Shown here: positions 24,251 through 56,471 of the stretch, one piece after another
Position numbering within the stretch: position 1 is the stretch's first letter
How the letters are laid out: each line of letters starts with the position of its first letter
Assembly (NCBI GenBank): GCA_001724265.1
Contig: MEDY01000051.1
Coordinates: 1-64,000, forward strand
DNA length: 64,000 bases
Direction of reading: 5' to 3'
DNA from: Rhizaria sp. SCN 62-66
Lineage: Eukaryota
Made by a program: the position numbers and the translations under genes
The notes under the pieces: generated by a model
Database searches by the model: none
What the model was told of the DNA's origin: nothing
What the model saw: only the letters and a program-made list of their open reading frames with translations

Positions 24251-24315
<65 letters not shown>

Positions 24316-27300
24316 TGCAGCAGCAACAGCAGCAGTCGGACGCCTTCTTCCAGCAGCAACAGATGATGCTGATGATGGGCCAGAATAACATCAACAACAA
24401 CAGCGGCAACAGTGCGTCGGCGACCGCGACTGCTGCGACCGCGGCTGCCACAGCCATGTCCGCCGCCTCGCTCACCCTGTCCTCGTTCAACCAAATGGGC
24501 GGCAACGACGACGGCGATGGCGCCGACGGCAACGGCGCCGACAACAGCGGCGCATTCCCCCCCGGCGTGGACCCCGCGGCCGTGGCGGCCGCCGTGGTGG
24601 ACTCGATCGCGCTCGCGCTGGGTCCTTCGGTGGGCACCGTGTTCCGCTACCTGGCGGCGCCCATGCTCGCCGCGCCGCCCGCCACGCAGGAGGACTTGAT
24701 GCGCCAGATCGCCTACTCTGCGGCCACCGCGGCCACAGCCACGGCCTCAGTTACCGCAGGCGCCCCCGCCGTCCCACCCCTGCCGCTGTCGACTGCGCAG
24801 AGCGTGGCTGCGCTCAGCAGCAGCGCCGGGCTCGCCAGCGCGGCGCTGTCCGTCACGTCGGACTCGCCCGCGCCCTCGCTGCCCAGCGGCATCCTCGCCG
24901 CGGGCAACAACACGACCTTCGTCAACAACAACTTCGTCAACACCAGCAGCAGCAGCAGCAGCGCCTCGAACGCCCTGCTCGCGCACGCGCTCAGCAGCCT
25001 GCCGCCGTCGACCGCGCTGGCGACCAAGAACAACAGCAGCAGCAGCAACAGCAGCAGCGACATGGTCGCCCACACGAGCGCTGGCGGCGTCGGCAGCGCA
25101 ACCGCAGCAGCCTCGCACCTCGGCGTTCCGGACCAGATGTCTTTCGGTGACATGTCCTCCGTCTGCGCGTCCTCCGTGCTGTCGCCCGCGTCCACCGCGC
25201 CCGCGCCCGCCGCGCCCGCCGCCGCCAACGCCGCCGGCATCGCCGCCGGTAGCACCGGCGTGACCATGAGCACCGCGACCATGCAGCGCGCGAGTGTGGG
25301 CGCGAACTTCTTCAAGCACTGCTCTGCCGCCGCGACAGCGGCCGCTGGTGCCGAGGACGCTGCGCAGCTCCGCACCGCTGGCAAGGGCAGGCTTAGCACC
25401 GACAACACCAGCAAGAAGACCAGCTCCGACGCCACTGGCGCTGACAACATCGACGCTGGCTCTGCTGGCGCTGCCGGCGCTGCAGACGCTGCTGGTGACG
25501 CCCTCGCTGCCGCGGGTGCCTCTGCCGACTCCGACGAGACCGCGGCCGCCACCCCGACGACTGCGACGGCGACGGCGACCGCTGGCGCGCACCGCCGCGG
25601 GCTGTCACTGCCCGCCGGCCACACCGGCGCGATGGCCGCGGCCGCCGCGGCCGCCGCTGCCAGCGCCACCGTGGGCGCCAACTCCGGCCGCGGCACGCGC
25701 TCGCGTGCTCTCGACACGAGTGCGGGCAACGCCGCTGCGGGCGGCGCTGCGGCGGGTCCTCGCCCTGGCCCGGAGGACGAGGACGAGGACGGCAACGGCA
25801 ACGGCGACGGCGAACAGGACGAGGATGACCACGGCGACGGACTGTCGCAGGTGCCGTCTTCGGTCGCGCTCACCGCGAACCCGCGCCGCGGCCGCGCTGG
25901 CAACAAGGCCGGCACCGGCGCCGGCAGCAGCAGCGACAAGCAGAGCGCTGTTGATGGCGAGAGCGCCAACGCCGCCGCCGAGAACGACGACGTCGACGAC
26001 GAAAGTGTTGACAAGCCCAAGCCCCTGCCGTGCCCTTCGATCCGCGCCAAAGTCACCACCTTGAACGCCGCCCGCAACATCCCCAACGACGACGCTAGCG
26101 ACGGCGACGGCGACGACGCCAGCGACGCCCTGCCCTCCGAGATCTGCCTGTCCTCGCCCGCGGCGTCCCCCGTCCCCGCGTCCAACGGCGGCGGCGCCTC
26201 TGGTGCGGGCTCGGGTCTCCCGTACGAGAGCCTCTTCGCGCGCGGCCGCCCCGGTCTGTTCGTCGGCGTGTCGGGCCCCGCCGCGGTGCCCCGCCCCAGC
26301 AGCGCGCTGGCCACGCCCACGCACACGCCCAACGCCGCTGCCGCCGCCGCCGCCGCCGCTGCCGCCGCGAACGTTTCTGCTGGCGCCGCTAGCGGCTCCG
26401 GCAGTGGCGCGAACGGCGCACCCCCGACGCCCCGCAGCGCGCTCGCGCTGGCGATGGCCACGCACCAGCGCACGCCGCCGCCGCAGTCGTCGGCCGCCAC
26501 CGCGGCCACTGCCGGGGCCGCGTCGTCGAGCGCGACCAAGCTTGCCACTGCGGCAGGCAGCAACAACGGTAACGGCAACGCTGCCGCTGCTGGGTCGTCC
26601 CTCGCTGTTGCAGTGGGCTCATCGTCCGCGACCCGATCCACAGGCTCCGCCTCCGCTTACGCCTCCGCGTCCTCCATCTCCGGCTCCGACTCCGGCGCCA
26701 GCGGCAACGGCAACGGCAACGGCAGCGGCAGCGGCAGCGGCGTGCGTATGGTGATGCCGGTGCCGTCGCCGTCGAATCACCGGCTGCGCGAGCAGGTGCA
26801 GGCGCTGCAGAGCTCCGCGGCGCGCTGCGACGACAACAACAATGCCGCGGACAACAACTGCGAGGACGAGTCGCCCGACGCCCCCGCGCGCTCCCTCGCG
26901 AGCGTGCGCGAAGGCGCTGTCGATGACTCGGACAAACAACAGCAGCAGCATCAGCATCAGTAGCAGCAGGGCGATGACAGCAACGCCAACGACGTCGCCG
27001 CCGCTGCCGGTACGAACGCGCAGCATCTCGCGCTCCCCCAGATGCAGCTCCAGCAGCAGCAGCAGCAACAGTTGCAGCATATGCAGCTGCTGCAGCAGCG
27101 CCAGCAGCAGACGCAGGTTCAGGCGCAGCTCCAGGCGCAGCTGCACGCGCTGCAGACGCAGCTGCAGCTGCCGGGCCAGTCGCCGCAGGCGCAGGCGCAG
27201 CTGCTGCACCAGGTGCAGCTGCACATGCACGCGCTGCAGCTCAACGCCATCGCGCTCAACAACCCGGCCGTAGCCAGTTCCGCCGGTGGCGCCGCGTTTG

Positions 27301-28703
27301 GCGTGTCCGCGTCGGCGCTGTCGCAGGCGCAGCGGCCGCCGATGCCGCCCTCGCGCACGGCCCCGTCGCCCGCGCCCAGCAACACGACCAATAGCAGCAC
27401 GCCCGCCGGCGCCGGCAGCCAGGGCCTCAACTCGGCCCGCTCGCGCCCCGGCCAGAGCGTCACCAACTCTGCGCGCGGCGACAACAACGCGTCTCCGTCC
27501 CCCTCGCTGAACGGCTCCGAATCCTCCTTGGCCTCCGCGTCCGCCTCGGCTTCCGCGGCCGCCGCCGCCGCCGCCGCGTACGCCGCGGTCCTGCAGGGCG
27601 CTAACGGGCTTGCCACGCCCGGCATGACCGTGACGCCCACGCTGTCGCCCTCGCCCTCAGTCATGGCCGCTGCTGCCGCCGCTGCGGCGCAGGCCGCCTC
27701 CGGCAGCGGCGGTGTCGGCGGCGTCGGCGGCGTCACCCTGCCCGGCTACACGCTCTCGGGCCAGGCGCTCTCCGCCGCCGCCGCTGCTGCCGCCGCTGCC
27801 GCCGCGGCGGCCGCGTCCAACGCCGCACTGTCGGAGCGCTTTTCGTCGACGAACATTTACGTCGGCGGCTTCGGCGACCACGTGACTGAGGCGGAGCTGC
27901 GGAACGTCTTCGGCGTCTTCGGGCCCATCTCGTCCGTGCGCATCATGTCGGACGACGCGACGGGCCGTGGCAAGGGCGTCGGGCTCGTGCGCTACACCTC
28001 GGCCGACGCCGCTTCGGCCGCCGTGCTCGCGCTTAACGGCGCGCTGGCGCCCGCGCAGGCTCTCGGCGGCACGCGTCCCCTGCAGGTGCGGCACGCGCGC
28101 GTCGGCGTCGCTAAGGCGCGCGCCATGGCCAAGGCCGGCGGGCCGATGCCGCCCATGCCGCCCATGCCGCAGATGGGCCAAATGGCCCAAATGGGGCAGA
28201 TAGGGCAGACGGGGCCGCTGGCGGTGCCGCAGATGTCGATGGCGCAGATGGCGATGCTGGGCATGGGGCTGAACAACAGCACCAGCAACAGTGTTGGACA
28301 GCAGCAGCAGCAGCAGCAGTTGGGGCAGCTGTCGATGCCTGTGGGCATGGGCATGGGCGCCTCTCTGCACGACGGCAACAACAACAACGGCTTGATGAAC
28401 AACAACGGTATCAGGGCTGCGGGTGCGTTCGGCGACTTCAATATCAACGGTAACAATGCGGGCAACTTGATGCAGCAACAACAGCAGATGCAGTTCAATG
28501 CGAACAACGGCTCGTTCGGCTTCGGAGACGCTTCACTCACTGGGAGCAACAACGCCACTAATGGTGTTTCTGGCTCCGGTGGCTTGGATGCGGCGACGCT
28601 CGCGTCGCTGCCGCCCCACATCTTGCAGCAACTCATGTCGACTCAAGCTGTCGTCATGCAGCAACAGCAACAGCATCAGCAGCAGCAGCAACAGCAACAG
28701 CAT

Positions 28704-28760
<57 letters not shown>

Positions 28761-29354
28761 CAGTTTGATAATAACCAGTTTGATAACGATGGCAGCGCTA
28801 ACGGCAGCATGTTTTCCCCTTCTTTCGGCAGTTTCAACCGCGGCGGTGGTGACATGGACACCAACGACAACTACGCTGACAACAACAACAACAACAACAA
28901 CAACAGCAACAACAACAACAATAATAACACCTTTGGCAATAGCAACAACGGTAGCAACTTTAGCGGCGACGTGAGCATGCCGATGAGTTTGCCCATGAAC
29001 ATGAACATGAACAACAACGGCCCCAACATGTTTGCTGACGGCGGTCTCAACAACAACGGTTTGTTCCATGGCGGCAACACTAACGCCGGTGGCGCGTTCA
29101 CGGCGTTCGACTTCGGCGCTTTTGACAGCAACACCGCCGCCGACGGCATCGACCTGGGCCTCGTCAACGGGCTTAACGGCATGGACTCCGGCATGGGCAG
29201 CCTCAACGACATGAGCCGCGGCATGAACGCCGGCATGGGCTTCGGCATGGGCGGGCTCGACTCGATGCTCGGCGGCGGTGGCGGCGCCGGCGCCTCGCCC
29301 AGCCCTTTTGGGCAGCAGCAACAGCAGCAGGACAATGACGGTAACATGATGTAA
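22254..29354 (+). CDS. Two-RRM (ELAV/Sxl-like) RNA-binding protein with polyQ/N/A tracts; one ORF of about 2366 aa if TAG 26961-26963 is read as sense
   Basis: RRM1 NLYVRNLP...SKGVGFVRY (about 23805-24040); RRM2 NIYVGGF...GKGVGLVRY (about 27850-28100). ORFs 22254-26963 and 27042-29354 share a frame and are separated only by one TAG plus 26 open codons. Ends TAA. Confidence 0.8.
24252..24314 (+). repeat. (CAG)21 coding polyglutamine tract; further CAG/CAA tracts at about 28660-28762
   Basis: Direct reading; in frame with the RRM gene. Confidence 0.9.
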
Positions 29355-30034
29355 AGCGAATGTGACCGAGATCTAACACGGTGTGGGTGGTGCTCGCTCA
29401 TATGCGTCATGCTTGTTTGCGTCTGGTTAGACAAGATATTGATTTTGCATCATGCTATTTCTTCACGAACACGTTTTTATTGAGCGATTACCAACATCAC
29501 ACACATTCATGGATTCGCACACTTTACCTCTCTGCGTACGCGCTTCCACGCACATTTTCACTTTCGTCCTCCCTATTTTCATTTTGCCACTTTCCGTCAA
29601 CACCTCCAACTTGATTTGAAATCCTCTTAAAAACATGCGTTGGGTCACACCGCTCTAATTTTATGCGGAGACGTTGCTGCTACTTTGATTGATTTCGGTC
29701 AGACTTTGTTGGTATTCTCTGGTTCATTGTGTCCCTCTAGTCCTCCCTCCAGCCTTTTACTTTCCCTCCTCAACTCTCTGCTTACCACATCTTTGTTTCG
29801 CGTCCCTTCCCTGCACTTTGAGTCACTTCCCTCAAATTTTTTTTTTTTTTTTTTTTGTAATTGCATTGCCGAAGCTTTTTGCAGTTCCAGTATTAGTCGC
29901 ATTAGCAACAGTAACGCAACACGACGCCTGGCACGTCACTTTCGTCGTCTCGCTGTCTCGTCGTCTAGTTAATACGTAGTTAAATTGTTTCGCTTGTCCT
30001 TTTTGTCTTTATTTTTCTTCTGCCTCAATACGCT

Positions 30035-30036
<2 letters not shown>

Positions 30037-30078
<42 letters not shown>
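30037..30078. repeat. (AC)21 microsatellite
   Basis: Direct reading of the sequence. Confidence 0.95.
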
Positions 30079-30079
<1 letters not shown>

Positions 30080-33000
30080 GTCTTTTGGTCAGTGCAATAC
30101 GCGTACGGTCCAAAATACTGTTGAGTGCAGCGCAGTACACTTGTGCATAGCTCAATCTGTACTCTGTGCTATCCTTGCTTACTTGTTTGTGCTTGCTTTC
30201 AACATGTTTTCGAGTCATGTTTGTTGCTTGAGATTGTCTTTGTTTCCTTTTTAGACTGCAATAATTCATCTCCATTTCACTCGACGAGATGTTGCGCTTT
30301 CTATTTTCATTTTTATGCCTGGGTTTTGCTGCTTTCATTGTTGCATTGCTTTGCTATACTGATTGTGAATGTGGTTTCGCACAATGATGTTTTCACGCGT
30401 ACGTTGCGCGTTGGGCGACAATCTCACCACCAAACACACCGCCACAGCAATTCATCAACACTATTCTGTGTGTGACAGTCATCACGCATTAGCACGATCC
30501 ACAAACAAACATCACAGACTCATCAAAGACTCATTCACGTCAACACTGATTAGATTTGCACCCGCAAGAGCTTGCCTATTTGTACTCTCCTACTCCAATT
30601 ATACTATCACACAAATATCACACACCAACACACTGCGCTGCAAAACCCTGCAGTGTACTGCACTGGGAGTATTTTATACCCCGCGAGATAACACGTTCGA
30701 TTTCGGTGCGAGCGAACTTCACAGAGCACTTGTACACGGCGCGCCACTGCCCAGCGCCGGTCCACACTCTTGATCATTAGCTGACGCTGCTCTAGCGTGT
30801 TTTCTCATGGACGACGGTTGCACTCCTGTTGTTGTTGTGGTGAATATTCAAGCAACGATGACATACGTTGATATTTTTTCCTAAACTCTGTTTTCTACTT
30901 GCATCTTTTCGAAGCACACCACATCCAGTCTAATTCTCCAAGTTACTTCGATCTTGACAAACGGCGGCTTAACGATGTGCGTTTTTCCTGCACATTGCTG
31001 TCTTTTGCACACTATCTTCTTCATGTAACTTTGTTCTATTACCACTGTGAGTGCTGTTGGTTGGGATTTTGCAAGTACTGTGCATCCTTGTGATGTCTTT
31101 TATGTACGCATTCATCACATTGTATTTTCATACTTTTTCATATTTTTATTCTTTGTCCTGTATCCGCGTATGCTCTCGTGCACATTACGACTGGTAGCAG
31201 TTTATATTTGCTCCGGTTGGTGCATTTGTTGCTGCTCACATTGCATTATTACATTCACAGTTGTGTTTTGCTTTAAATTCCGCGATCTCCCTCTGTGTCA
31301 CCCTCGCTGTGCTGTCTCCAGTCAATTGATCCAATTGCTATGTTATGCTCTGCCTTTTTTATTTTCTTCATCTTGCTTTTAAAATTTGTTAATTGCTGTT
31401 TCACTTCATGTCAGTTTATTTCACACCGTATCATTTGCGCACACGCTATAATACCAGTTTTTTGTCGTCTTTTTTTTTCTTCTTCCGTTTACGTCATCCC
31501 AGACTTCCACTACGAATTGTAATAGTCGTGAAACTGATAACTATGATTGTCTTCGTTTACATTCTCATCCCCAACACACTTTTCCTGTTGTGTTTTTAAT
31601 AATAATCATGCATGCTTACTTTTTTCACATTCATGTTTGCCGCAAGTTTTCAGTAGTTTATGTTTTATGTAATTTACGTTTTACTACCATTGTGACACCT
31701 AATTACGATGTATTGTACTGTTGTCACAAAACTGTGTACACACAAAGACGAAGCTAGCGGATTTCAGTCACCTTCTCAACAACACACTGCATTCTTATAT
31801 TTTCTCGGTGACCATGTATTCATTAGTAATCGCCGAGGGGGAATGAGCAGTGGCTGTTGAGTTATAGTGCTGTGCTGTACGTACAGTGCATTAATAATGC
31901 GTTCGCATCTTGTGTCCGTCATTATCTCGCTCAACTCCCCTTAAAAGTATCTCTTTATCGAAGTCACACACACCAACCCACTTATGGTACACAACTCGCC
32001 GCTTAGCGTTATTGCGCTTTTCGACGCTACCTTTGCCTTACCCTTTGCTACACCACACTACGCCATCTTTTCACACCATCTTTTCACACACCTTGTTCCC
32101 GCACTGATTCATGTTGACACGTACTCCTGAGTGCTTGCCTGCGTCATCGCTCGCAACATCGGTTGTTCCAATATGTTTCGGCGCAGTTCTAGTGCCATAT
32201 AATGCTGTCAAACGCAGTGCAGTCGCACAACAGTCGCGTATTGTGTACATGTTGTCATTCGCCCACTTCCACTTATCTCCACATCATCATTCCTTGTTAT
32301 CACCAACTTTCAGTTAGTTACTACAACCCAACACTGCTCTTTTCTTTTTCTTGTTAAGTTACATGACGCGTGATAGTGCGTAGTATCTTTCCTTTTAATT
32401 TTTGTTGCTTGGTCATTTTTCTCACGTTCTCCTCAGCGCCTTTTTTTGTTTCTTTTACCCAACATTTCGTATATTTTCGCCCGTTTTATCCTCTACGTCT
32501 CTTTTGTTTTCTCCCAATCACTAACTCTTATCACAGCACAAGCGTTGCTTTCTGCCACATTCACTGTTATTGTGACTGGAGCTGTAGTTGTTACTGTCAG
32601 TGTCGTCACTGTCTCTCCATGGACTCTTTTTTAGTTTCTTTTAGCATTCGCGCGTCTATCCAAGACTCACTGTTGCTGCAACAGTGCCATTCTCAAGGCT
32701 TGCTTTTGCTTCGTGCTGACTCATCCCCACACACGTACAAAATCAACTCATCCCACCTCAACTATATATCTCTCCGATCTGTATCACACATCTTCTTTTC
32801 ACCACTTATGGACATAATAATATAACACATATACATGACTTCTTATAGTGAACACAAACCAACCATTAATCGTAGAATCAAGCGTAACCATCAGAAGCTT
32901 CAAATTGTGTGAAAAAAACACTGTGTATTTTTCGATTGTGACCAACTAACGCGTGGTTCAAGACGTCATGAAAAATCTGTACATTTTTTGAAAACAAAAA

Positions 33001-33131
33001 GAGGGATAGAGAGGACAACAAGTCACCGCACGGGCAACCTTGTAGTCGCAGCTTCAGTAACCATCAGCTGTGACAGGCTCGGAGAGACAAAACACGGCTT
33101 AACCTTCGGCGAGAGACGATGGCCGGTGCAC

Positions 33132-34691
33132 TTACTGGAAGCGCTGGGGCAGGGAGCGCTTCTTCTCGAGGATCTCGCGCTCCATCCACCAGATAGCGCC
33201 GTGGGGGATGGCGTCACGCTTCTTGATCTCCTCAAGGGCGGCCTGAGCGTCCTCCATCTTGACCTTGATGTCGGCGATGTGGGCCTCAACCATCTTGGTC
33301 TGGGCCTCGGCGGCCTCGGAGGCCTCGACAGCCTTGGCGCGGGCAGCCTCAGCCTGGGCGCGCTCGGCCTCGGCCTGCTTGCGGGCCTCCTCAGCCTGGG
33401 CGCGGGCATCCTCGGCCTTGGCGCGGTCCTCAGCGGCCTTATCGGCGGCGGCCTTGGCCTTGGCGGCGGCCTCCTCGGCGGCAGCGCGGTCGGCGACGGC
33501 CTGCTCGCGGTCAGCGACAGCCTGCTTGGTGGCAGCAGTGGCCTTGGCGCGGGCCTCCTCGGCCGCGGCGCGGGTCTTGGCGGCCTCGGCAGTCTTGGCG
33601 GCGGCAGCCGCGGTCTCCTCCTCGGCGGCCTGGCGCACGCGCTGGACCTTGCGGACCTGGGCGCCCTGGTTGATCTTGGCGCGCTGGAGAGGGAGGGGGT
33701 CGGCGCCCTTCAGGCGGGCGAGGTCCTGGACGGCGGTGTTGCGCTTGACGATGCCCGCGGACTCGTCCTTGGTGACGGCGTCGAGGCGGTTGATCTCGCC
33801 AGTGTAGGCGTCCTGCTCGGCCTTGAGGGCGGCCTCGATGGCCACGGCCTCGGCCTCGGCCTCACGGACGACCTTCTCGGCGGCGCGGAGCTTGTCCTCG
33901 GCAGCCTTGAGGGCGGCCTCGGCGTCGCGGGCGGACTCCTCGGCGGAGACGGCGGCGGCCTCGGCGTTCTTGGCGGAGTTCTCCTGCGCAACGGCGCGGG
34001 CCTCAGCAGCCTTGGCGACCTCGGCGGCGGCGTTGGCGAGCTCGGACGCGGCGCGGGCGGCGTTGTCCTGCTGCTTGGCGACCTCCTCGGCGGCACGTGC
34101 CTCGGCCTCCTTGGTCTTGGCGGCCTTCTCGGACTCGATGGCGGCGGCCTCGTTCTTGCGGGCCTCAGCCTCGGCAGACTTGGCGGCAGCCTCGAGCTGC
34201 TTCTGCTGCTCAAGCTGGACCTGGAGGTCGTCGAAGGCCTTGTTGAGGGCCTCAACACGCGCGGTGGCCTCAGCGAGCTCGCCGGGGTTGGTCTCGCCGC
34301 CCTGGGGGTTGTTGATCAGGGAGAGGACCTCACGGGGGGTGCCCATCTGGTTGGCGCGGAAGATAAGGTACTCAGCAAGAGCCATCTCACCGTTGGCATC
34401 GAGGTCGATCTTGCGGAGCTCGTGGCGGAGCTCGATCGCAGTCAGGGTGCGGCCGACCTTTTGGAGGTAGTGGTGAGAGAGGACCTCGTCGAGCTGGTTG
34501 CCGTTCTTGCCCTTGGCGTGGTCGACGGCAATGAAGTCGTGCATGGTCTTCCAGACGGACTCAGCCTCGGCGTCGCCACCCTGGGTCCAGAAGGCGTTGA
34601 GGTAGAACACGGCCTGCTCCTTGTAGGTCATGGCAGTGATCTTGCGGAACTTCTCAAGAGTCGCGTTGTCGAGCGCAGCGGGTCCGGACAT
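33132..34691 (-). CDS. Calcium-regulated actin-bundling protein of the Dictyostelium ABP34 family, with long Ala/Glu/Lys coiled-coil expansion; 519 aa
   Basis: QAVFYLNAFW, LTAIELRHELRKIDLDANGEMALAEYL (EF-hand), PLPLQRAKINQGAQVRK and C-terminal GAIWWMEREILEKKR match remembered ABP34 motifs (QAVHFLNAYW...GAIWWMNRDLEEKKKR). Ends TAA. Confidence 0.8.
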   Translation of the reverse strand: MSGPAALDNATLEKFRKITAMTYKEQAVFYLNAFWTQGGDAEAESVWKTMHDFIAVDHAKGKNGNQLDEVLSHHYLQKVGRTLTAIELRHELRKIDLDANGEMALAEYLIFRANQMGTPREVLSLINNPQGGETNPGELAEATARVEALNKAFDDLQVQLEQQKQLEAAAKSAEAEARKNEAAAIESEKAAKTKEAEARAAEEVAKQQDNAARAASELANAAAEVAKAAEARAVAQENSAKNAEAAAVSAEESARDAEAALKAAEDKLRAAEKVVREAEAEAVAIEAALKAEQDAYTGEINRLDAVTKDESAGIVKRNTAVQDLARLKGADPLPLQRAKINQGAQVRKVQRVRQAAEEETAAAAAKTAEAAKTRAAAEEARAKATAATKQAVADREQAVADRAAAEEAAAKAKAAADKAAEDRAKAEDARAQAEEARKQAEAERAQAEAARAKAVEASEAAEAQTKMVEAHIADIKVKMEDAQAALEEIKKRDAIPHGAIWWMEREILEKKRSLPQRFQ

Positions 34692-35524
34692 GCTGATTTG
34701 TGCTAAAGAAGTGGTTAGAAAAGTTGACAGAATAATAATATAGAGTCGATGGAATGTGAGAAGAATGTTAGGAGGATGCTTGTTCGATCCAAAAAGTAGG
34801 CACGCGACGTGCGCCTGGGAGGCAGAGGCTCAAATTGTTTTTTCTCCATGCATATCAGAGCATAAACAAAGCAATCGCATGCAAGAACTCGATTCCCATA
34901 TGAAGAGCACTCGTTAAAAGCTCTTTATAGAGAAAGCAATCGATGCCGGTGGTGATAATGCAAGGTAAAGCACCAGGATACGATGGCACGAGGTGGCACG
35001 AGGCGTTTCATGCGAGCGATTCGCGAACCCGTCGAAATGCAGCACACAACAACATTGTTTCGCAAAACGAAATATTAACCCAAGCTAAGAAGAGTTCTAT
35101 GGTGCCTAAACACCCAACTTCAATCGCGCTTGCCTTCGGCTTTGCACTAAACAGCTTTGGAAAAGAAAGTCCAAAGGACGCCACCATCTCTTTCCCTCGG
35201 TCCGCTCGTCGAAAGTCAAGCCGGGCAACATGTGTGCGGGCTGGAGTCGCAACGGGTCTCTGTCGCGCGTCTTATCGCCCCTGGTACACGGCACAAGGGC
35301 AAAAATGAAGATTAAAATGTTATAACAACATTAAAACAAACTTATATTTTGTATTTATCGCATTATATTCCAGAAGGCAGGTTACTATGGCCCTACAAGC
35401 CACTATAACTGACTCTCACCACAAACGAAAGAAAGTTATAATTAGTCACACAACACGCATAAACCGCTGTCATCCGTGCAGTATTCACGAAAAACAACAG
35501 TTTTAGCCGGAGTTATGCAGTTCT

Positions 35525-38065
35525 TCACACCCATGCAGCAATGATCTTGTCCATGGCGGTGACCTTGGCCTTCATCGCGATCGTCAGCGGGCTCTTGTCG
35601 CCGTAGCAGTTGACGTACACGGCGGCCGCCTTCCTCCACGCCTCGGCCGCGCTCTTGCGCTTGCGTTCGCTCTCAGGCGTCCGCGCCGCGCCCGCGCCCG
35701 TGCATGCGGCGAGCGTCGCGGCGTCGGCGCGGCCCTCGTTGACGACCACCTCCGGCACGCCACCTGCGACGGCGTCGGCGTCGCCCACGGCGGCTTGCGC
35801 GTTGGCGGCGGCGGGGTAATCCGCCATGCCGACTTGCTTGAGCGCCATGAGCGCCATCGTGGCCCACTTGCCCACGGCCTTGAAGTCGCGCGCCGCGCGC
35901 GCGAGCTGGACCAGCGCCGTGTATGCGTTGAACACCACGTAGTGGAACGGAACCAGGCCGGCCACGGTCTTGCACGGCGCGCCGTCGCTTCCGCGCGGCG
36001 CCGTCTTGATGACCGCCACGTCACTGCCACTGCTGTTGCTGCTGGTGTTGATGTAGGCGGGGAGCGTGGTCATGCTGACGACGTCGCCCTCGAGCACGGC
36101 GCGCGCGGCCTCGTTCTTGCCGTGCGCATACAGTGCCAGACCCTCGTGCAGCCGCGTCTGCACGCTCTCCACCAGCGCGTCCACCGCGCCCACGGTCACG
36201 CTGCGGTCACCGCACGCGGCGCACGTCAGCAGCGTCGCGTCGGTCACCGGCTCGGCAGCCGCGACCACCTCGGCCTCCGCCTCAGGGTTGGCAGTCTCAG
36301 CGGCGGCGGCAGCCTCGGGCTTGGCAGCCTCAGGGTCAGCAACATCCTTCTTGTCCTTGTTGTCCTCGTCTTTGTGCACGTTGGCAGCATCACTGTTCTC
36401 GCCGTCGGCAGTCAGGTGGTGGTTCTTGCGCTGCGGTCCGGCCCGCGCGCGCGCCTTCTCGGGGTAGTCGAGCTGCCCCTTGCCGCAGCGCAGGCACTTG
36501 ACGCCTGCGATGACCTTGTCCTCGGCCGCCTGCGCCGCGGGCGCGTGGCGGCCCTCGGCTGTGGGGTCGAAGAAATAGCGCCCGCGCAGCTGACCGCGGC
36601 GCACCCAGGACGGCGCATACAGGTCCACGTAGTTGTGGGTAAGCTCCTCACCGGCTTTGACCGCGCGCACGGTGCGCATGGTCATGTTGCAGCCGCCCGA
36701 GCCGCCCGCGCCGCCGAAGGTGTAGGAGCATGTCGGCAGACACGAGTGGTTGAGGTACGACGCGGCCGAGAAGATGCCCATGCCGATGGCGTTGTTGTTC
36801 AGGTCAGTGATGCTGTGCGCGTTGACGTGGTAGCGCAGGTACAGGCGGGCCGCGCGGACGGCGCCGGTGGCTTTCCACACCTCGGGCGCCATGATCATGC
36901 CCAGCGAGGACATCACCTGCCGGGCGGGTGCGGGGATATATCGAGTGAAACAAAAAATTCAAAAAAATAAATGCATATATATAGTTAGATAATTGCGTAC
37001 GTAATATTATTTCCTAATTTGGCTTCAGTCAAGTGAGACATATGTGTTCGAGAGTTCACTTAAGTAAACTACGCATCGATTGTGAATTCAGGTTGTACTG
37101 TGCTTAGTATGAAGCTATCTCTTCAAATTGGCACAGTGTCAACATTTCGCGCCGCAAGTATGCTTTATCTGCACGTACCTGCGTGGCCTGCGCAAAGACG
37201 GCGGGCGGGAAGCTCGCCTCGTGGGTCATGAGCGCCTCGACATCCGCGAAGTTGCACCCGACCTTGGGCTTCCACTGCTGCAGCGCAGCGGGGATAGCCG
37301 AGGTGGTGACCGTGGTAACCTTCTTGCCGTTGACCACGCGCGTCGTCGTCGTCTTGGTCACCGCGGCGTTGGCGTCCCCGGCCTTGGCGGCAGCGGCGAG
37401 GTACTGCTCCTCCTTGTGGCCGAGGTAGAGGGCGCGCATGACGCAGCGGAACGACGCCGTCTCGCCACCAAGGCGGATCAGCGGCAGCGCCTTGAGCGAC
37501 GCGCACTCAAGCTTGTGCACGGGCTCGGCCGCCGTGTGGCACGCGCGCGAGCAGTAGCTGGGGAGGAACGCAGACAGAACGCAGAGCGCACAGGCAGAAA
37601 GTGATGTGTGAAGTGAGTTAGGAGGCGTACAGGGACAAAACAAAGAGTTTTAAGAGCAAAACTAAGACATTCCAATAAAAAAGAAGCAAAAACGCAAAAA
37701 TACACACATTGTAGCCATATGTTGAGTATTTGTTGCGTATTAGCGTACCGCGCAAACTTGCAGTCAGAGCACTGGTAGACAGTGCCCATGCACTTGCCGA
37801 AGCACTGGTGGCAGAAGACCGACACATAGTCGTCAAAGAGCACGCCTGCAAAGGGCGCCTGGTCGAGCACAAGCGTGCCGGCGGGCAGGTCCTGTGCGGC
37901 GACGACGTAGCGGCCCTGGACGTTGTTGTACGCGAGCTTCATGTTGCCCGAGAAGAACTGGTGCGCGCCCAGCGCGTCGAAGGAGCCGGCGAGCTGCTCC
38001 ACGGAGGGGTCCACGCCAAACAGGGAACCCGCCGAGGAAGACGCGGCGGACGCGGAGGCAGACAT
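35525..38065 (-). CDS. SET and MYND domain lysine methyltransferase (SMYD family); exons 37749-38065, 37179-37557, 35525-36916; 695 aa
   Basis: GRYVVAAQDLPAGTLVL; MYND CHQCFGKC...CSDCKFARYCSRACH...HKLEC; SET GIFSAASYLNHSCLPTC, RAVKAGEELTHNYVD, RRGQLRGRYFFD; TPR-like C-terminus. Exons sum to 2088 nt in frame. Ends TGA. Confidence 0.9.
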
Positions 38066-41469: not shown

Positions 41470-44051
41470 ATGTCCGCTGATAAGGTAGGTCCCTTGCTTC
41501 GCAACCAAGACCCGCAATATGACAGTCTGCATACCGCCCTCTACCCTTCGCGCATAAGCTATATAGACACAAGCATGACGATTATAGGAGGCTGCATGTG
41601 CGCTATGACGACATATTTGCGTAGATTTTGCATATGCTGTCATACTTGCTTTTGTTTCATCGTCCCGAGTTCTCGTCCCCCTCCTTCAAATCTCCCCTAC
41701 CCTCGCTCGCTTAACGCACGCTCACCCTCTTGCTTTCGTCCCCAATCCGCTCATCTATAACCTTGTCACGCTGTTTGCATATCGCTTTGCAGGAGTCTGC
41801 GATTGTGTTGGTCGACCCCATCTCCACCGGCGCCAACCTCGCGGACCTTCTCCTCAACCAGTACGTTCCCCGCCGCGACGCCCACTTTGGCGACGACAGA
41901 TCAGACATAACTGTGCACAGATCTTATTAATTTTACACTATAGTGTAATTCGTACCACGAAAATGTATTAACATGAATATTTCATCTTAAATCACCAAGG
42001 CGATACCAATACCATGACATACGTGTCTTATTTCTTTGATGCTGACATCACGTTGTCCCCCATGCTGCTCTCCGCACTCTTTTCCCACCCCCGCTTCACG
42101 CCACAGGGGGAAGAAGGTGATCGTGTTCTGGTCTACGAGCGTCACCACGGACCTGCACGCGCTGCTGCAGCCCGGCCTGCGGACCGACTACACGGCCACG
42201 CTGCACGAGACGTCCTCGGCCGCGGCCGCTGCACCGCTCGGCGACGACAGCTCGCGCGTGCGCTCCGACGCGGAGCTGGCCGCGATCGCCGCGCTGCTGC
42301 GCGCGACTGGGTACGACATTGCGGCCGTGGTGGCGGCTTCGGAGCTGGGCGTTGAGTGCGCGGACCAGGTAGCCGCACACATGGGGCTGCGCGGCAACGG
42401 CACCGCGCTGACCGACTGCCGCCGCGACAAGTTCCTCATGGGCGAGGCCGTGCGCGCGGCGGGCATCCGTGCCGTCAAGCAGCGCTTGTGCGCGACGTGG
42501 GCCGAGGCGCGCGCGTTCCTGCTTGAGTGCGGCATCCCCGACGGCAAACGGCTCAGTGTGGAGGAGCTGGCGTTGCAGCGCGCCATCGACGGGCCCGCAG
42601 AGGCGTCGGCCGCGCTGCGCATGGTCATCAAGCCCGCGCGCTCGGCCGGCAGCGACGACGTGTTCCTGTGCAGCCACATGGACGAGTTCGAGGAGAAGTT
42701 CAAGCACATCATCGGCAAAAAGGTACCCTACACCTATCGAAAACAAAAACATAGCTATAAAAAAAGAGGAGACTTGCACAAGAAGACCAGTCGAAATGTT
42801 TTTTTTTTTTTTCTTTTTTTTTTTCTTTATCATTGTTGAGCTTTTCTCTAAACTCTTAATTTCTACTTGGCTGTTGCATTATCTTATCTTTTGTCGCCTA
42901 GAACAAGGTGAACGTGGCCAACACGGCGGTGCTGTTGCAGGAGTACCTGCAGGGCGTCGAGTTCGTCATCGACACGGTGTCGCTGGACGGCCAGCACAAG
43001 ATGGCCGGGTGCTGGAACTACATGAAGGGCTCCGTCAATGGCGCCGCGTTTGTGTACTTCGGCATGAAGCTCGTCGACGGCGCGAACCCGGTCTCGCAGG
43101 AGGTGTTTGCCTACGTCAAGCAGGTGCTGGATGCGCTCGAGATCAAGAACTGGTGCGGACACGCAGAGGTCATGTATCACCCACTCACGGGGCCGTGTCT
43201 CGTCGAGGTTGGCTCACGGCCCCACGGCGGTGAGGGCATTTTCATCGAGGGCGCCAGGTAAGTACGCCCAATGTCCTGGCAATGTCAAGATTATGCGAGA
43301 CGAATATTTCATCACCAAAACATGAGATATCTCAGCTAAATTATATTTTTTTCAAGATGACATTTCAGATATTTGCATTGTTTTGCATTTATATTGATGC
43401 GCTACAATTTATCGTGATCAGGGCTCATATCATGCATGTATTTGATTGCACTACTGGTGATTTATACCACTCGTACAGGGCCGTGTGCGGGTACAGCCAG
43501 GTGGATCTGCTGGCCGCCGCCATGGCGGGCAGCGAAGAGTTTAGCACGTTTCCCGACACGTGGTCCGTCAAGACGGGCGCGGCGGCAATCATCGACCTCG
43601 TCAGCTACAAGGCGGGCGTCGTCAAGAACGTCAACGAGGACGCAAAGTACGTGCTTGTTCCACATGCATGCCACATGGAGGACACATAATCATCTTTATT
43701 GTGTTTGCTTGTTTGTTTGCTTTTGTTTCTTTAACTTCCCGTGTTGTTCCAAGACATTGCATGATTGATCTATGTAAGGCACATGTTCATGTCTTCATTT
43801 GTCTCCTCTCAAATTGTTTTCTTGCCATCTTCACGTTGTTTCACCTTTTTCCCAGGGCCAAAGTGGAGGACCTGGACTCATTCCGCCACTGGCACTGCCT
43901 GCCGGCCCCCGGCGCGACAATCTCGCCCACGATCGACTGCTTCACGACGGTGGGCTCGATCACGCTCGTGTCGGGCAGCGCCGAGGCCCTCAACGCCGAC
44001 ATCGAGGCCGTGCGCGAGGCTGAGGAGACGCTGTTCGACCTCGTTGAGTGA
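41470..44051 (+). CDS. ATP-grasp enzyme (L-amino-acid/peptide ligase-like); exons 41470-41484, 41793-41860, 42107-42722, 42902-43257, 43479-43646, 43856-44051; 472 aa
   Basis: IVLVDPISTGANLA, ELGVECAD, RRDKFLMGEAVRAAGI, VIKPARSAGSDDVFLC, LLQEYLQGVEFVIDTVS, GHAEVM...GPCLVEVGSRPHGG. Six GT-AG-bounded exons sum to 1419 nt in frame. Ends TGA. Confidence 0.88.
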
Positions 44052-44280
44052 CGAAGAAAGCAACATTTGACATGCGTTTGGAAACTCATTCAGAGAGAAA
44101 TACAGTTTTTTCAACTAACTAATACGGTGACTACATCGATGACTCTCAAAACTTGTCTGATGAAGATGGCAGCGAGGATGATTACTGTGCATTCTTTATT
44201 AAACTTATCACGTCTTACGACCATCTTCGTGATGACAAAGTGGAGGGTCCGATTTGTCAATTTCTAGAGCGTCACATTAT

Positions 44281-45744
44281 TCAGTACTTGTTGCTCCTTC
44301 GCACCTGCATCTGCCCTCCCCTCGCAGTCTGCTGCTGTTGATGCATCTGTCTCTGCCCCTGCTGCTGTTGCTGCTGCTGGCTCTGCGCCGCCCCACCACC
44401 GCTCTCGGCACCCACGCGCGTGGTGCGCACCGGCAGGAAGCGGTTGAGCCCGGTCTGCACAAGCGCGTTGCGGTTGCGCACCACGTTGGGGTTCACACGG
44501 CCGCAGCTCGTCACGGCGCTGCCCTCGACGTGCGAGCTCCCCACAGTGCGCGCGCTCCCGGCCGCCGCACCCGCCTCGTACCGCACCGGCATGCCCGGCA
44601 GCGCGAGGAACTGCGGCGCCTGGTCGCGCCGCGCCCATCCGGCCTGCCCGCGCGGCTCGATCCCCGCCGTGCCGAGCACCGCGGCGGCTGCGGCTGCGGC
44701 GGGCGGGGCTGCGGCGTCGGCGGCGGCCGCGCGCGCGGGCTCGGGCGCGGCGGCGTGCCCGAAGGCCGCCGGCGCGGCGTGGAACGTCGGCGTGCGGTGA
44801 TGCTGATGATTGGGTACGTAGTCGAGTCGCGGGCCCAAAGCGAAGGCCGGGTCAGTGACGCCGTAGCCGATGTCGCCCACGGCCGTGCCGCGCCGGCGCA
44901 AGGGGTGGTAGTTCGACATCGACGGCGGCGGCAAAGCGGACAGCTGAGACTGAGAATGGGAAAACCTAGACTTGCTTTCGTCACCGCCGCCACCGCCGTC
45001 GCCGCCGCCGCCCTTGTAGAGAAACCCGGAGACGACGCTGCTTTGGTCAGGGCTGAGGCTGTCGGGAGGGGTGTCTGCGCTCCAAGTCACGGTCTTGCCC
45101 AAGCCAGCCTTAGCACTCGCTCCAGCACCGGCACCAAAAGCTCCAACAGCAGCACTCGTAGCCGGAGCGTGGTGATTATTGTAGCTGCTGTGAGAGCTGT
45201 AGTTCCCCGACGGCGTGGGGGGATCATATGCACTGTATCCACTATTGACAGGGTTGTACGCAGCGTCCGCACTCGCGCTGGCGTTGTTGCTGTACGCGCT
45301 GGCGTTGGCATTATTGCTGTTTTTGTTGCCGCTGCCACTGGCGCTGGCGGCGGCGTGGAACGAGCCAGAGCTGGTGCGCATGTGCGTGGGGTAGGTCGAA
45401 AGCCCCACGGGAGCAGGCAGCGCGGGCGCGTAGGCCGCGGGCGCGGGGACGACACCGCTGGTCGACGCGATGGGCACGCCGCGGTAGGTGGGGATGCGGC
45501 CGACGCGTTGCTCGTACATGCGCGCTTCTTCGGCGTTGTCGCCGCGCGCGTGCATGACCGCCGAGAGCGCCGAGCCGACGCGACCGGAGGTGCTCAGGCC
45601 CAGGTTCACGTTCTTGTACGTCAAGGAGGTGGGCACAGCGGCGGCGGAGGCAGGGGAGTAAAGATGCTGGTGCTGCGGGGCGGAGATGCGCGCGCTGGAG
45701 CTGGGGCTGGTGGCCGAGAGATGTGGTTGTTGTTGCTGCTGTTG

Positions 45745-45793
<49 letters not shown>

Positions 45794-46041
45794 GGGTACG
45801 GCTGCTGCTGGGAGGGTGAGAATGAAGGGATAACAGTGGGCCGCGCGGAGGCAGCAATATCGGGGTTCTAGGCAATCGCAAGGTCGGCGTTCCAGGGCGG
45901 AATGCCAGCGCCGCCTGTCACGCGGCCGTTAAAGACGCGAGCGGTGTTATAGTGGGGGAGATCGTTGTTGTTCGTGCGCGCACCAGCGGTCTTTTGTGTG
46001 ATCTGGGAGTTGATCGGCGCCCACTGAGGAGGGTGCCACAT
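44281..46041 (-). CDS. Hypothetical low-complexity/polyQ protein; about 586 aa if TAG 45868-45870 is read as sense
   Basis: ATG at 46041 (MWHPPQWAPINS...) opens a frame that continues through one TAG into NPDIAAS...polyQ...VPTSLTYKNV and joins ORF 44281-45636 in the same frame. Ends TGA. No recognisable domain. Confidence 0.65.
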
Positions 46042-46832
46042 TTCAGCAACAACTAATCTATACAAAAATTGCAATAAACGCTCTGGTACGGGTTGATAGA
46101 ACGAGACTAGAGAGAGAAACCAACGAGAGTAGGTAGTGGCGGTGAGGGTTGGTTTCTTGACATCGGTTTCGGAGGACACATCACATTCCCGATCTTCATG
46201 AAAGCTATAATTTAAAGATAGTTGAAAAAAAAGTGTGATGTAAGAAATAAATGGTTTATGAAGTCATTAACGCCCAGTTTCCGCCACAGCACCATGTCAA
46301 ACAACGCGCTCGTTACTTTACCCCCCACCCCCTAACCAGCCGCCACCACAGATACGCAGGACGAGTCAAGCAAGCAGTCAATAGCAGCTGTTTTGAGCGT
46401 AGAGGTGATCTGAACAAACAGAAACAGAAACGAAAATAAACGTATAGTATACATGTACATATAGTGCGAATATTCATATAACGTAGTAGCCAACGAATAA
46501 CCTTGGAGAAAAGAACAAGAACTCGGAACAAAGAAAAAGAAAGGAACATAACAGCAGAGTCGTTATTTTACAAAACAAACAAGAAAACACAGAGACACAC
46601 ACAAAAAAATATTTAATTTGACTCAGCCACCAACATACAGACATGTCCACACGTGAACAATCAGAAAATAAGCGATATATATCCACGCGGGGCAGGCCCT
46701 CACACATCTATGCACGCTGCATCACCACTTCCGATAGCAAAACTTCGGTCACGTACGGACAAAGACTTACAAGACTTCGAGAAGTGAGGAGTCAGGATTT
46801 ATTTATGCTCACACAACAAACGCACCACAACC

Positions 46833-52480: not shown

Positions 52481-53220
52481 ATGCGCAGCACTGCACGCAA
52501 AAATGCAGCACAAGGCAAGGAGTAAAGGTCGGACAGAGCGAGGTTCGGTGATGGCAGGGCGAAAGGAGGATCGGGGGGCGAGAGGGATTCGGGCGGGGAG
52601 AGACGAGGGTGAGTGGAACGGCGCTGTGAAGGTGATGCAACAATGGGACAAAGTACGGGCTATGCTGGGAAAGAAACTGATTCGGGGCGAGTAAATCAGA
52701 ATGGAGGGGCGCGATAGGCTCTTCGCGCGTGGACCGCACGCGGTCGTCCGACTTGGGCTAATCGGTAAACTAAAAGAGAACATAGCACTGCGGATCGACC
52801 GCCCATACATGCAGCCTTTCGGTATGAAGCAAATGCGACCACATAAAATACTTCATATAATTCTGTGATTTATCAAAGCTTTTTTTGACCCATTACGGGA
52901 CGTTTCTGATGTTGGGAGTTTCGTTATGGTCGTTGTCGACTCGCTCTGGCAGGCGGTTCGCAAAAAGTCTCCCGAGGATCGAAATTTCGTTTGAGCGAAA
53001 CGCAAGTTCTCGTTTACGGTTCGCCCTGCCATAACCACTCCGTTAGTGACTTAAAGACGCACTTTTGATTTAAAACTATGCCCTCAATTTTTATTTCTAA
53101 ATTCATTTCTCGTTTAGCTCTAACTTATTGATCGTAAACTCTTCCGCCGCTGACCACTTTCTCCTCCGTTTGCCACCCGTTGCCCCGTCCCCTTCGTCCG
53201 CCCGGTCTCTACTAACACAG

Positions 53221-54830
53221 ATGTGGCCTGCGGCCCCCTTTAGCGTACCTGGTACCCCCATTGTGCGGTATCCGCCGCCAACGCCCGTCGTGCTCACCAC
53301 GCTGGGTCCCTCCGCAGGGTTCGCCGCCAGTCCCGCCCCAGTCTCCGGAAACACTCACTATATCTCGGGCGCTGCTGCTGCTGGCGCGGCGGGGTCGGCT
53401 GCTGTGGGCACCGGCCACGGATATGCGCCCCAAGTGATCCGGCCCTACCGCTCAGTGCCCTACCTTCCCGGCGCAACGACCTCCACAGGCCCTCAGCAAC
53501 AGCACCAGCCTCAGCACAACAAGCTTCAGCCCCACAACTCTTACGGCCTCAGCTGCAGTCGCGGTCACAGCCAGGCTTACAGCCACGACGCCCAGCCGCA
53601 GCAGCACCAACCGCACCCGTCTCAGCACAGCACTAACGCCGGTCCCAGTGCTGTCAGCGCTGCTAGTGGTGTCAATGGTGCCAATGGTGTCTATGGGAAC
53701 ACGAGCTACGTGGCGCCGCCGTCGCGCCCCGCCTTCATCCTGCCTCACCAGGGCCTCTCAACCCCTGCCCTGGTCCCGATCCCCGTCCCCGGCTCCGGCC
53801 CTGTCCCGTCGACCGCGACCGCGACTTCGGCGGTGAGCGCGGCCACGGCGTCGGCGCGTCTCAGCGCCGCCCGCGGTGCCGCGCCCGCGCCCGCAACCGC
53901 CCCCCTAGCCCCCGCGTCCGCGCCGCGCTCTGCGCTGCCGACTCACAGTCACTCTGCCCACGGCCACTCTGCCCGCGGCCACGCGCCCGTGGCGGTACCG
54001 AGCGTGGCGGCGGCGACGAACGCGATCAATGTGCCCGCCACGGCGCCGCGGTTGGGGCTCGCCTCGGGGGCGCGCATCGGTGAGCACGTCCCTCACGTCC
54101 CGCACGTTTCACACGCTCCGCAGAGCGCCGCTCACGGTCATGCTGCGAGCAGTGCTGCTGCTGCTGAGGAGTACAATAGCAACGATGCGAGCTATCTGTC
54201 AGCCCTGCAGACGCCGCACCACACGCACAAGTCCTACAGCGGCAGCAACCACGCGAACAGTCATCGCGCCAGTCATCGCGACACCGAGGCGGCGACGACG
54301 AGTGCACACCCGGCTCAGGCCCAGGCTCAGGAGATTGCTGCAAGGACCGGCTTTGTACAGGCGACCCGCGTTGCCCTCACCGCGCCCTGCGCCAGCTCCC
54401 GCGGCGTCGCCCACAGTCACCAGCAGCACGCCGCCCACAGTCACTCCCACGGCGCCGCCGCCCACGGTCACCCCGCGGCCGCCGCCGTGCCTGTGGGGGC
54501 GCACGGCCACTCGAGCATGCGGCTCACCGCGCCCGCCGCGTTCGCCGCGAGTGCGAGTGCTGCACCGCTGAACCACGCCGCGCTGCGCTCGCACACGGGC
54601 GCGAACAACAACAACATCGCGCTGGCCGGTGGCGGCGGCGCGCTGGTCGGCGCGGTGCCGGTTGCGACCCTCGCTGCTGGTGGTTCCGCAGGTGTCATCA
54701 GCGGCGCTGCCCACGGTCACCCCGCTGTCCACGGTCACTCCGCGGCTGCGCACAATCAGGTGCACGATGTGGGGTCGCCGCTGCGCTGGTACTCCGCGCG
54801 CCCCGCACTCAACGCGCATAGCACCGACAA

Positions 54831-54871
<41 letters not shown>

Positions 54872-55350
54872 GCTAGGCCCACGGCAACGGTGGCCAGGCT
54901 CACGGCAACATGGGCCAGCATGTCGCGCTTGGCAGCGACGACGCGCCCGTGGCCACCGTGCTTGCGTATGATGACGACGAGGACGCTGAGGGTTGCCATG
55001 ACGGCTACAACAGCAACGGCGATCCTCGTACCGCTGCAGCGAATGGTAACGACTATACGTACAGCCAGGGCGCGTTCAACCAAGGCGTGTACCCCAACCA
55101 AGGCGCATACCCCGCGACACAACAAGGGGGCAGCAACCCTTCGCAAGCTGACAACCACGCCGAGAGCAATGCTGATGACTCTGACCAGTACGATAATCGG
55201 CAACAGCAGCCTCAACAACAACAGCAGCAACAGACGATGTCCGTGACTTCGGGTGCGACCACCGTGCATGTAAGTGCCTCGCCCACTTACACCTCGACCG
55301 TGGTTGTGGGCAACGACGACACTTACGTTGTTGCCACCTTGCCCCCTCAG

Positions 55351-55388
<38 letters not shown>

Positions 55389-56430: not shown

Positions 56431-56471
<41 letters not shown>

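What the first reader, a model, noticed from the sequence alone, without database searches (positions are those of the whole stretch)
26961..54876. Probable non-standard nuclear genetic code: UAG read as sense (most likely Gln) while UAA and UGA remain stops
Seen: all 14 complete gene models end in TAA (actinin, SpoVS, AGPS, Hsp70, lipase, RRM, ABP34-like, 57273, 61165) or TGA (SMYD, PUB, ATP-grasp, 44281, ARM-PH), none in TAG. Three long genes on both strands are each interrupted by exactly one in-frame TAG (26961-63 +, 45868-70 -, 54874-76 +), never by TAA, TGA or a frameshift. They continue in frame with coding-like composition for 797, 529 and 799 codons (stop included). No AT-rich intron surrounds any TAG. 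The 3' contexts differ (CAG, AAC, GCC), arguing against one programmed-readthrough motif. Two TAGs occupy Gln positions. Established: most nuclear UAR reassignments recode UAA and UAG together; UAG-only recoding is reported in very few eukaryotes (e.g. the fornicate Iotanema, UAG=Gln; an uncultured rhizarian, UAG=Leu; some ciliates). Inference: this organism has an uncoupled UAG=Gln code, which would need a tRNA-Gln(CUA) and an eRF1 that ignores UAG. Caveat: only three sites in roughly 14,000 codons, all in poorly conserved regions.
Basis: partly seen in the sequence, partly recalled or inferred. Interest (0 to 1): 0.95.

Follow-up and report, generated by a model that had tools for sequence, protein, structure and literature searches.

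The report
Possible UAG sense codon, uncultured eukaryote
Three genes of an uncultured wastewater eukaryote each carry one in-frame TAG while none of the 14 complete genes here ends in TAG, which suggests, but does not prove, that this organism reads UAG as an amino acid, probably glutamine.

Summary
Each lies in GC-rich sequence whose best coding frame is the same on both sides. None lies in an intron; introns here are AT-rich. An unbiased scan of 211 stop triplets found only these three inside continuous coding signal. All 14 complete genes end in TAA (9) or TGA (5), followed by a fall in GC; the TAGs are not. TAG1 sits between two RRM domains that a relative's ortholog carries in one open frame. 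TAG2 is the same in three studies, a JGI contig and 7 database contigs. TAG1 and TAG3 stand where neighbouring repeat units have CAG.

About 73-75% of possible nonsense point changes in these genes give TAG, so "only TAG" says little. TAG is 0.4% of glutamine-type codons, far below known UAG-recoded eukaryotes. All three sites are in low-complexity tracts, and none is at a conserved domain position. No genome, tRNA(CUA), eRF1 or peptide could be examined.

My odds: UAG decoded as sense 0.55 (Gln the likeliest meaning); fixed premature stops under the standard code 0.25; leaky or programmed readthrough 0.1. Separate genes or a uORF (0.04), assembly error (0.03) and unnamed causes share the remaining 0.1.

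The parts
26961..26963 (+). TAG1, in frame, inside a Gln/His codon tract (CAG CAT CAG TAG CAG CAG)
   Evidence: An X1 contig covers 26712-27765 with 0 differences.
22254..29354 (+). Gene 1: 2366-codon low-complexity protein with RRM1 (about 23800-24070) and RRM2 (about 27855-28045). It ends in TAA at 29352-29354.
   Evidence: Pfam RRM_1 on both sides of TAG1, E 5.4e-11 and 2.7e-15. GC3 is 0.86 in both halves. Ortholog P0014 holds both RRMs in one 1299-aa ORF.
45868..45870 (-). TAG2, in frame (GCC TAG AAC), 57 codons after the first ATG
   Evidence: Kept in X1, X3, X4 and L001. The 57-aa product is on 7 contigs.
44281..46041 (-). Gene 2: 586-codon low-complexity ORF (ATG 46041, TGA 44283-44281), no Pfam family
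54874..54876 (+). TAG3, in frame (AGC AGC TAG GCC), at the CAG position of a 21-nt tandem repeat
   Evidence: Not checked in reads.
54863..54918 (+). 21-nt tandem repeat (2.7 copies, 77% matches) that spans TAG3. Copies 2 and 3 have CAG where copy 1 has TAG.
53221..57273 (+). Gene 3: 1350-codon His/Ala/Gln-rich ORF (ATG 53221, TAA 57271-57273), no Pfam family

Best explanation
In this uncultured, GC-rich, intron-bearing eukaryote, UAG is decoded as an amino acid, most likely glutamine. UAA and UGA terminate. The inferred mechanism is a tRNA with anticodon CUA, derived from tRNA-Gln(CUG), plus weakened UAG recognition by eRF1. Shown: three in-frame TAGs lie in continuous coding sequence, and no gene in the window ends in TAG. 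Inferred: that the TAGs are translated, the amino acid, the tRNA and the eRF1 change. The very low usage points to a recent or inefficient reassignment. TAG would have been purged from gene ends and now reappears by neutral CAG>TAG changes only in tolerant Gln-rich tracts.
For: (1) 3 of 211 candidate stop triplets lie in continuous same-frame coding signal, and all three are TAG. GC3 is 0.74-0.86 on both sides and profiles are continuous. (2) The TAGs are not in introns, which are AT-rich. The 14 terminal stops are followed by GC 0.34-0.49; the TAGs by 0.63-0.68. (3) 0 of 14 genes end in TAG. The binomial P is 0.044 if TAG's usual share were 0.20 and 0.0068 if it were 0.30. TAA is preferred (9 of 14) although GC3 is about 0.88, as in published UAG-recoded taxa where UAA is the main stop (abstracts read). 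(4) TAG1 lies between RRM1 and RRM2. Ortholog P0014 carries both in one ORF, with 55% and 64% identity. RRM2 is intact (Pfam E 2.7e-15). A polyA-RNA contig covers 27136-27524 downstream of TAG1, while four of the 30 depth bins, those covering 29751-31084, 43091-43757 and 45759-46415, have depth 0 in that run. (5) TAG2 is identical in runs of three studies, including a strain with 3 differences in 605 nt, in JGI contig L001 and on 7 contigs of four source collections. X1 contigs run unbroken through TAG1 and TAG2. (6) TAG1 and TAG3 stand where sister repeat units have CAG. (7) No frameshift and no TAA or TGA interrupts any of the genes examined.
Against: About 73-75% of single-base nonsense changes in these genes give TAG, so TAG exclusivity has P of about 0.33-0.39 under plain mutation. 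CAG>TAG is the commonest route, which also explains the Gln-like positions. TAG is 3 against 609 CAG and 112 CAA in 12408 codons. Published figures are 8% of Gln codons in Iotanema and 18.5-31.8% in two ciliates, where 78-84% of genes contain UAG. No TAG occurs in any conserved domain. TAG2 may simply end a 57-codon upstream ORF, with the next ATG 104 codons downstream. TAG1 was seen only in run X1, which may be the source sample, and TAG3 in no other data. The sample is 14 gene ends. No tRNA, eRF1 or genome could be examined.
Confidence: 0.55

Rival explanations
1. Standard code. The three TAGs are genuine premature stops, CAG>TAG-type nonsense mutations fixed in this clonal lineage. They truncate dispensable disordered tails. 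The downstream frames are still open because the mutations are recent and GC-rich DNA rarely makes stops.
For: Nonsense changes here are strongly biased to TAG. All sites are in low-complexity, poorly conserved tracts. TAG usage is far below any known recoded species. TAG1 and TAG3 are one transition from the CAG of sister repeats.
Against: It needs 3 of about 15 genes to carry fixed nonsense changes, with no frameshift and no TAA or TGA anywhere. By coincidence, 0 of 14 TAG terminators as well. One truncation would remove a conserved, intact RRM that lies in polyA RNA. TAG2 predates strain divergence and is fixed in several assemblies.
Confidence: 0.25
2. Standard code with gene-specific or generally leaky UAG readthrough by near-cognate tRNA-Gln(CUG). 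There is no dedicated tRNA(CUA), so both short and long products are made.
For: Rare usage fits a codon that is tolerated but inefficient. Downstream of TAG3 the RNA folds better than shuffles, z -2.39, with 3 of 200 shuffles as good.
Against: The 3' contexts differ (CAG, AAC, GCC). There is no shared structure: z is -0.06 and -1.30 at the other two sites. Basal readthrough would not explain the loss of TAG from gene ends.
Confidence: 0.1
3. The TAGs are ordinary stops between separate translation units: two adjacent genes for genes 1 and 3, and an upstream ORF plus main ORF for gene 2.
For: In-frame ATGs lie 26, 104 and 11 codons after the TAGs. The piece upstream of TAG2 is only 57 codons.
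Against: There is no AT-rich spacer, unlike after all 14 real gene ends. The ortholog has both RRMs in one ORF. Repeat tracts run across TAG1 and TAG3. Coding signal fills the 104 codons between TAG2 and the next ATG.
Confidence: 0.04
4. Assembly or sequencing errors in repeat-rich DNA.
For: TAG1 and TAG3 lie next to simple repeats where contigs break. TAG3 is unverified.
Against: TAG2 is identical in X1, X3, X4, L001 and 7 database contigs. TAG1 lies in an X1 contig of depth 28 with 0 differences.
Confidence: 0.03

Closest known systems
Iotanema spirale (Fornicata) nuclear code: UAG = Gln, UAA main stop, UGA stop (PMC5304391; abstract and passages read)
   Same: Only UAG is read as sense. UAA is the preferred terminator. 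Gln is the proposed meaning. A tRNA-Gln(CUA) derived from tRNA-Gln(CUG) is the proposed mechanism.
   Different: There UAG is about 8% of Gln codons and was placed at conserved positions by a phylogeny-informed test, and its eRF1 has a GTS-motif change. Here it is 0.4%, in no conserved position, and eRF1 is unseen. The lineages are unrelated: an anaerobic flagellate against a GC-rich eukaryote with actinin.
Hartmannula sinica and Trochilia petrani (phyllopharyngean ciliates): UAG = Gln (PMC11687900; abstract and section 10 read)
   Same: UAG-only reassignment to Gln, with UAA and UGA kept as stops.
   Different: There UAG is 18.5-31.8% of Gln codons, 78-84% of genes hold one, and suppressor tRNAs were reported for the related UAG=Leu MAGs. 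Here 3 of about 15 genes hold one. The window is not ciliate-like: GC3 is 0.88 and introns are long and AT-rich.
Rhizarian exLh and TARA phyllopharyngean MAGs: UAG = Leu (PMC5304391, PMC11687900)
   Same: UAG uncoupled from UAA.
   Different: The meaning is Leu. Here two of three TAGs stand at CAG-equivalent repeat positions, which favours Gln.
Amoeboaphelidium protococcarum: UAR = Gln (as cited in PMC5304391 and PMC11687900; the original paper was not read)
   Same: A non-ciliate, amoeboid eukaryote with stop-to-Gln recoding.
   Different: Both UAA and UAG are recoded there. Here TAA ends 9 of 14 genes.
Programmed UAG readthrough of the tobacco mosaic virus type (UAG CAR YYA; motif recalled, not from a call)
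   Same: UAG is decoded mostly as Gln by a near-cognate tRNA. TAG1 is followed by CAG.
   Different: There is no common context or structure at the three sites, and readthrough does not predict the absence of TAG terminators.

Membership tests
UAG-only stop-to-sense nuclear code (UAG=Gln; UAA and UGA stops) | In-frame UAG inside bona fide coding sequence | tested here: met
   Three sites with continuous same-frame coding signal. TAG1 lies between two RRMs that ortholog P0014 has in one ORF.
UAG-only stop-to-sense nuclear code (UAG=Gln; UAA and UGA stops) | UAG aligned to conserved Gln in homologs, across many genes | tested here: inconclusive
   2 of 3 sites match CAG in internal repeats. 0 of 3 lie in a conserved domain. 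The TAG1 region does not align with P0014. No genome is held.
UAG-only stop-to-sense nuclear code (UAG=Gln; UAA and UGA stops) | UAG not used as terminator; UAA and UGA used | tested here: met
   0 of 14 gene ends are TAG; 9 are TAA and 5 are TGA. The sample is small: P is 0.044-0.007 for an assumed TAG share of 0.2-0.3.
UAG-only stop-to-sense nuclear code (UAG=Gln; UAA and UGA stops) | Widespread use of the reassigned codon, present in most genes | tested here: not met
   3 of about 15 genes; 3 of 724 Gln-type codons, against 78-84% of genes and 8-32% of Gln codons in known cases.
UAG-only stop-to-sense nuclear code (UAG=Gln; UAA and UGA stops) | tRNA gene with anticodon CUA and Gln identity | not testable with these tools
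   No tRNA in the window, no Rfam match, no genome.
UAG-only stop-to-sense nuclear code (UAG=Gln; UAA and UGA stops) | eRF1 N-domain change (GTS, NIKS, YxCxxxF) | not testable with these tools
   eRF1 is not in the window, and no other contig of the organism could be fetched.
UAG-only stop-to-sense nuclear code (UAG=Gln; UAA and UGA stops) | Peptides or ribosome footprints across UAG | not testable with these tools
   Only contigs of one polyA-RNA run were available. They cover the region downstream of TAG1, not the TAG itself.
Programmed stop-codon readthrough | Shared 3' context or downstream RNA structure | tested here: not met
   3' codons are CAG, AAC and GCC. Fold z-scores are -0.06, -1.30 and -2.39.

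The most novel reading that the evidence does not exclude
A deep, unsampled non-ciliate eukaryote lineage of activated sludge is caught at an early stage of a UAG-to-Gln reassignment. TAG is already gone from gene ends, in favour of TAA despite GC3 of 0.88. It is re-entering genes only through neutral CAG>TAG changes in polyQ-type tracts. This would be a natural snapshot of how UAG uncouples from UAA.
Probability: 0.35. Interest if true: 0.85.

Novelty: new member of a known kind. Interest (0 to 1): 0.6.

Why it matters
UAG-only reassignments are known from few nuclear lineages: Iotanema, one rhizarian and some ciliates. All of those were found when the codon was already common. A GC-rich amoeboid-type eukaryote with TAG gone from gene ends but still very rare inside genes would add an independent origin. 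It would also make the order of events testable: loss as a stop, then gain of a tRNA(CUA), then spread. In practice, standard-code gene callers would split this organism's genes. The database already holds the 57-aa TAG2-ended fragment as a separate protein on 7 contigs.

Tried and rejected
- Whole genome: none is held. No tRNA and no Rfam family in the window.
- Earlier-findings look-ups returned nothing.
- The metagenome scan with the ARM-PH protein gave only one 5.4-kb contig of the same organism, L001.
- Genome-contig scans: the actinin alignment found nothing. P0014 found only a bacterial RRM gene, L002, which is irrelevant.
- The viral-contig scan with the actinin alignment found nothing.
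- The search for fused forms of gene 1 at lengths 1301-4141 aa gave no hit. It is uninformative: low-complexity words filled the 7999 candidates, and P0014 at 1299 aa fell just under the length limit.
- Exact look-ups of the split pieces of genes 1 and 3, of the downstream piece of gene 2 and of the TAG=Q fused forms of all three genes: 8 of 9 sequences are absent. This is probably because callers choose other starts and contigs break at CAG repeats. It is no evidence either way.
- Atlas searches gave no usable taxonomy.
- Read laying: no listed piece of X3, X4 or X5 covers TAG1, and X5 has depth 0 over TAG2. The tables are cut, so this shows nothing. TAG3 lay outside the single 20-kb stretch allowed.
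- Intron hypothesis rejected.
- The shorter-window scan (20-30 codons) added only antisense-frame hits over known genes.
- The X4 variant CAA>TAA at 37130 is intronic.
- Literature searches for a wastewater or MAG eukaryote with this code listed none. Supplements were not seen.
Full report
**What the window is.** The 64-kb window is a gene-dense piece of a eukaryotic nuclear genome assembled from bioreactor or wastewater metagenomes. Runs of several studies hold it, three of them with 0.87-0.93 of the sampled words. No whole genome is held. Exons are GC-rich, with GC3 of 0.84-0.94 in confident genes. Introns and spacers are AT-rich.
- The lineage is unsampled. The best non-self actinin matches are 66% (metagenomes only) and 48% (an unnamed NCBI record). 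The nearest named match is a 34% cluster that contains Echinamoeba exundans.

**The observation.**
- I built a codon log-odds score from six confident coding stretches. The frame of each TAG is the best of six frames on both sides, with no dip in GC.
- The three introns I read are T-rich. The two whose 5' end I read begin GTACG, and the one read end to end is about 260 nt long. The TAGs are therefore not intronic.
- I tested every stop triplet flanked by at least 50 stop-free codons on each side: 211 in all (33 TAA, 118 TGA, 60 TAG). Exactly three sit in continuous same-frame coding signal, and they are the three TAGs (list). Shorter windows added only antisense-frame hits over known genes.
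- The 14 complete genes end in TAA (9) or TGA (5). GC then falls to 0.34-0.49 over 300 nt. After the TAGs it stays at 0.63-0.68.

**Are the TAGs real?**
- TAG2 is unchanged in contigs of runs from three studies. One is a strain with three nearby differences; the one of those three that lies downstream of the TAG is synonymous.
- TAG2 is also unchanged in an independent JGI contig that differs from the window at two other sites.
- The exact 57-aa product that ends at TAG2 is on record on 7 contigs from four source collections.
- TAG1 is covered by an unbroken X1 contig with no difference. X1 may be the source sample.

**Do they interrupt single genes?**
- For TAG1, yes. A full HMMER scan found P0014, a 1299-aa protein of a relative. 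It carries the counterparts of RRM1 (55% identity) and RRM2 (64%) in one open frame. TAG1 lies between them.
- RRM2 scores E 2.7e-15 in Pfam. A polyA-RNA contig matches 27136-27524, downstream of TAG1. Four of the 30 depth bins (29751-31084, 43091-43757, 45759-46415) have no depth in that run.
- A Gln/His codon tract runs across TAG1, and a 21-nt tandem repeat runs across TAG3. The sister units have CAG at the TAG position.
- TAG2 is the weakest case. Only 57 codons precede it, and the next in-frame ATG is 104 codons downstream. Coding signal does fill that interval.

**What weakens the recoding reading.**
- With this codon usage, 73-75% of all single-base nonsense changes give TAG (63-84% in the three genes). 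"Only TAG" therefore has a probability of about 0.33-0.39 under plain mutation. CAG>TAG is the main route, which also accounts for the Gln-like positions.
- TAG is 3 against 609 CAG and 112 CAA in 12408 codons. It is far rarer than CAA. Published values are 8% of Gln codons in Iotanema and 18.5-31.8% in two ciliates, where 78-84% of genes contain UAG.
- No TAG lies in a conserved domain.
- The machinery (tRNA with anticodon CUA, eRF1) could not be examined.

**Weighing.**
- Under the standard code one needs three fixed nonsense changes in about 15 genes, with no frameshift and no TAA or TGA. One of them would remove a conserved, intact RRM. One also needs zero TAG among 14 terminators. That has P of 0.044 at an assumed share of 0.2, or 0.007 at 0.3. 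The share for this organism is unknown. A higher-GC standard-code ciliate uses UAG at 30% of gene ends.
- Under recoding, the pattern fits a young or inefficient UAG sense codon.
- No shared context or structure supports programmed readthrough.
- I put UAG decoded as sense at 0.55, with Gln the likeliest meaning. Fixed premature stops get 0.25, leaky readthrough 0.1, separate units or a uORF 0.04 and assembly error 0.03.

**Comparison with known cases.** The closest known cases are Iotanema spirale and the ciliates Hartmannula sinica and Trochilia petrani: UAG=Gln with UAA preferred as the stop. This would be a new member of that kind in an unrelated lineage, unusual for its very low usage. 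My searches of the held literature listed no such code for a wastewater eukaryote. Supplements were not seen.

Noticed in passing
window 4320-5669 (+): A 449-aa eukaryotic ORF whose C-terminus is a bacterial-type SpoVS domain (Pfam E 3.1e-35). The fusion or transfer is unusual and was not examined further.
   Followed up: no
window 34196-34512: A polyA-RNA contig of run X5 matches with 30 differences in 317 nt. The same sludge sample probably holds a related species that expresses the ortholog of the 33132-34829 gene.
   Followed up: no
window 545-3529 (-): The actinin has no close named relative. Matches are 66% and 48% to unnamed metagenome or NCBI proteins and 34% to a cluster with Echinamoeba exundans. 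The organism belongs to an unsampled lineage.
   Followed up: partly
window 54874-54993 (+): The 120 nt after TAG3 fold better than shuffles (z -2.39; 3 of 200 shuffles as good). The other two sites do not, and the tandem repeat may explain it.
   Followed up: partly
window 11775-, 37177-36918 (-), about 51020-50890 (-): Introns are AT/T-rich against GC-rich exons. The one read end to end (37177-36918) is about 260 nt. The two whose 5' end I read (11775-, 37177-36918) begin GTACG. The two whose 3' end I read (37177-36918, about 51020-50890) end in CAG. Exon borders are easy to see from composition.
   Followed up: partly
window 37130: Strain X4 has G>A here, which reads CAA>TAA in the stop-to-stop ORF 37104-37649 (-). 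The site lies in the intron of the SET gene, so it is not an in-frame stop.
   Followed up: yes
window 22254-29354, 44281-46041, 53221-57273: These genes have very long Gln, Asn, Ala, Ser and His homopolymer tracts, for example 20 or more CAG in a row. Public contigs break at these tracts, which limits every read-based check.
   Followed up: partly
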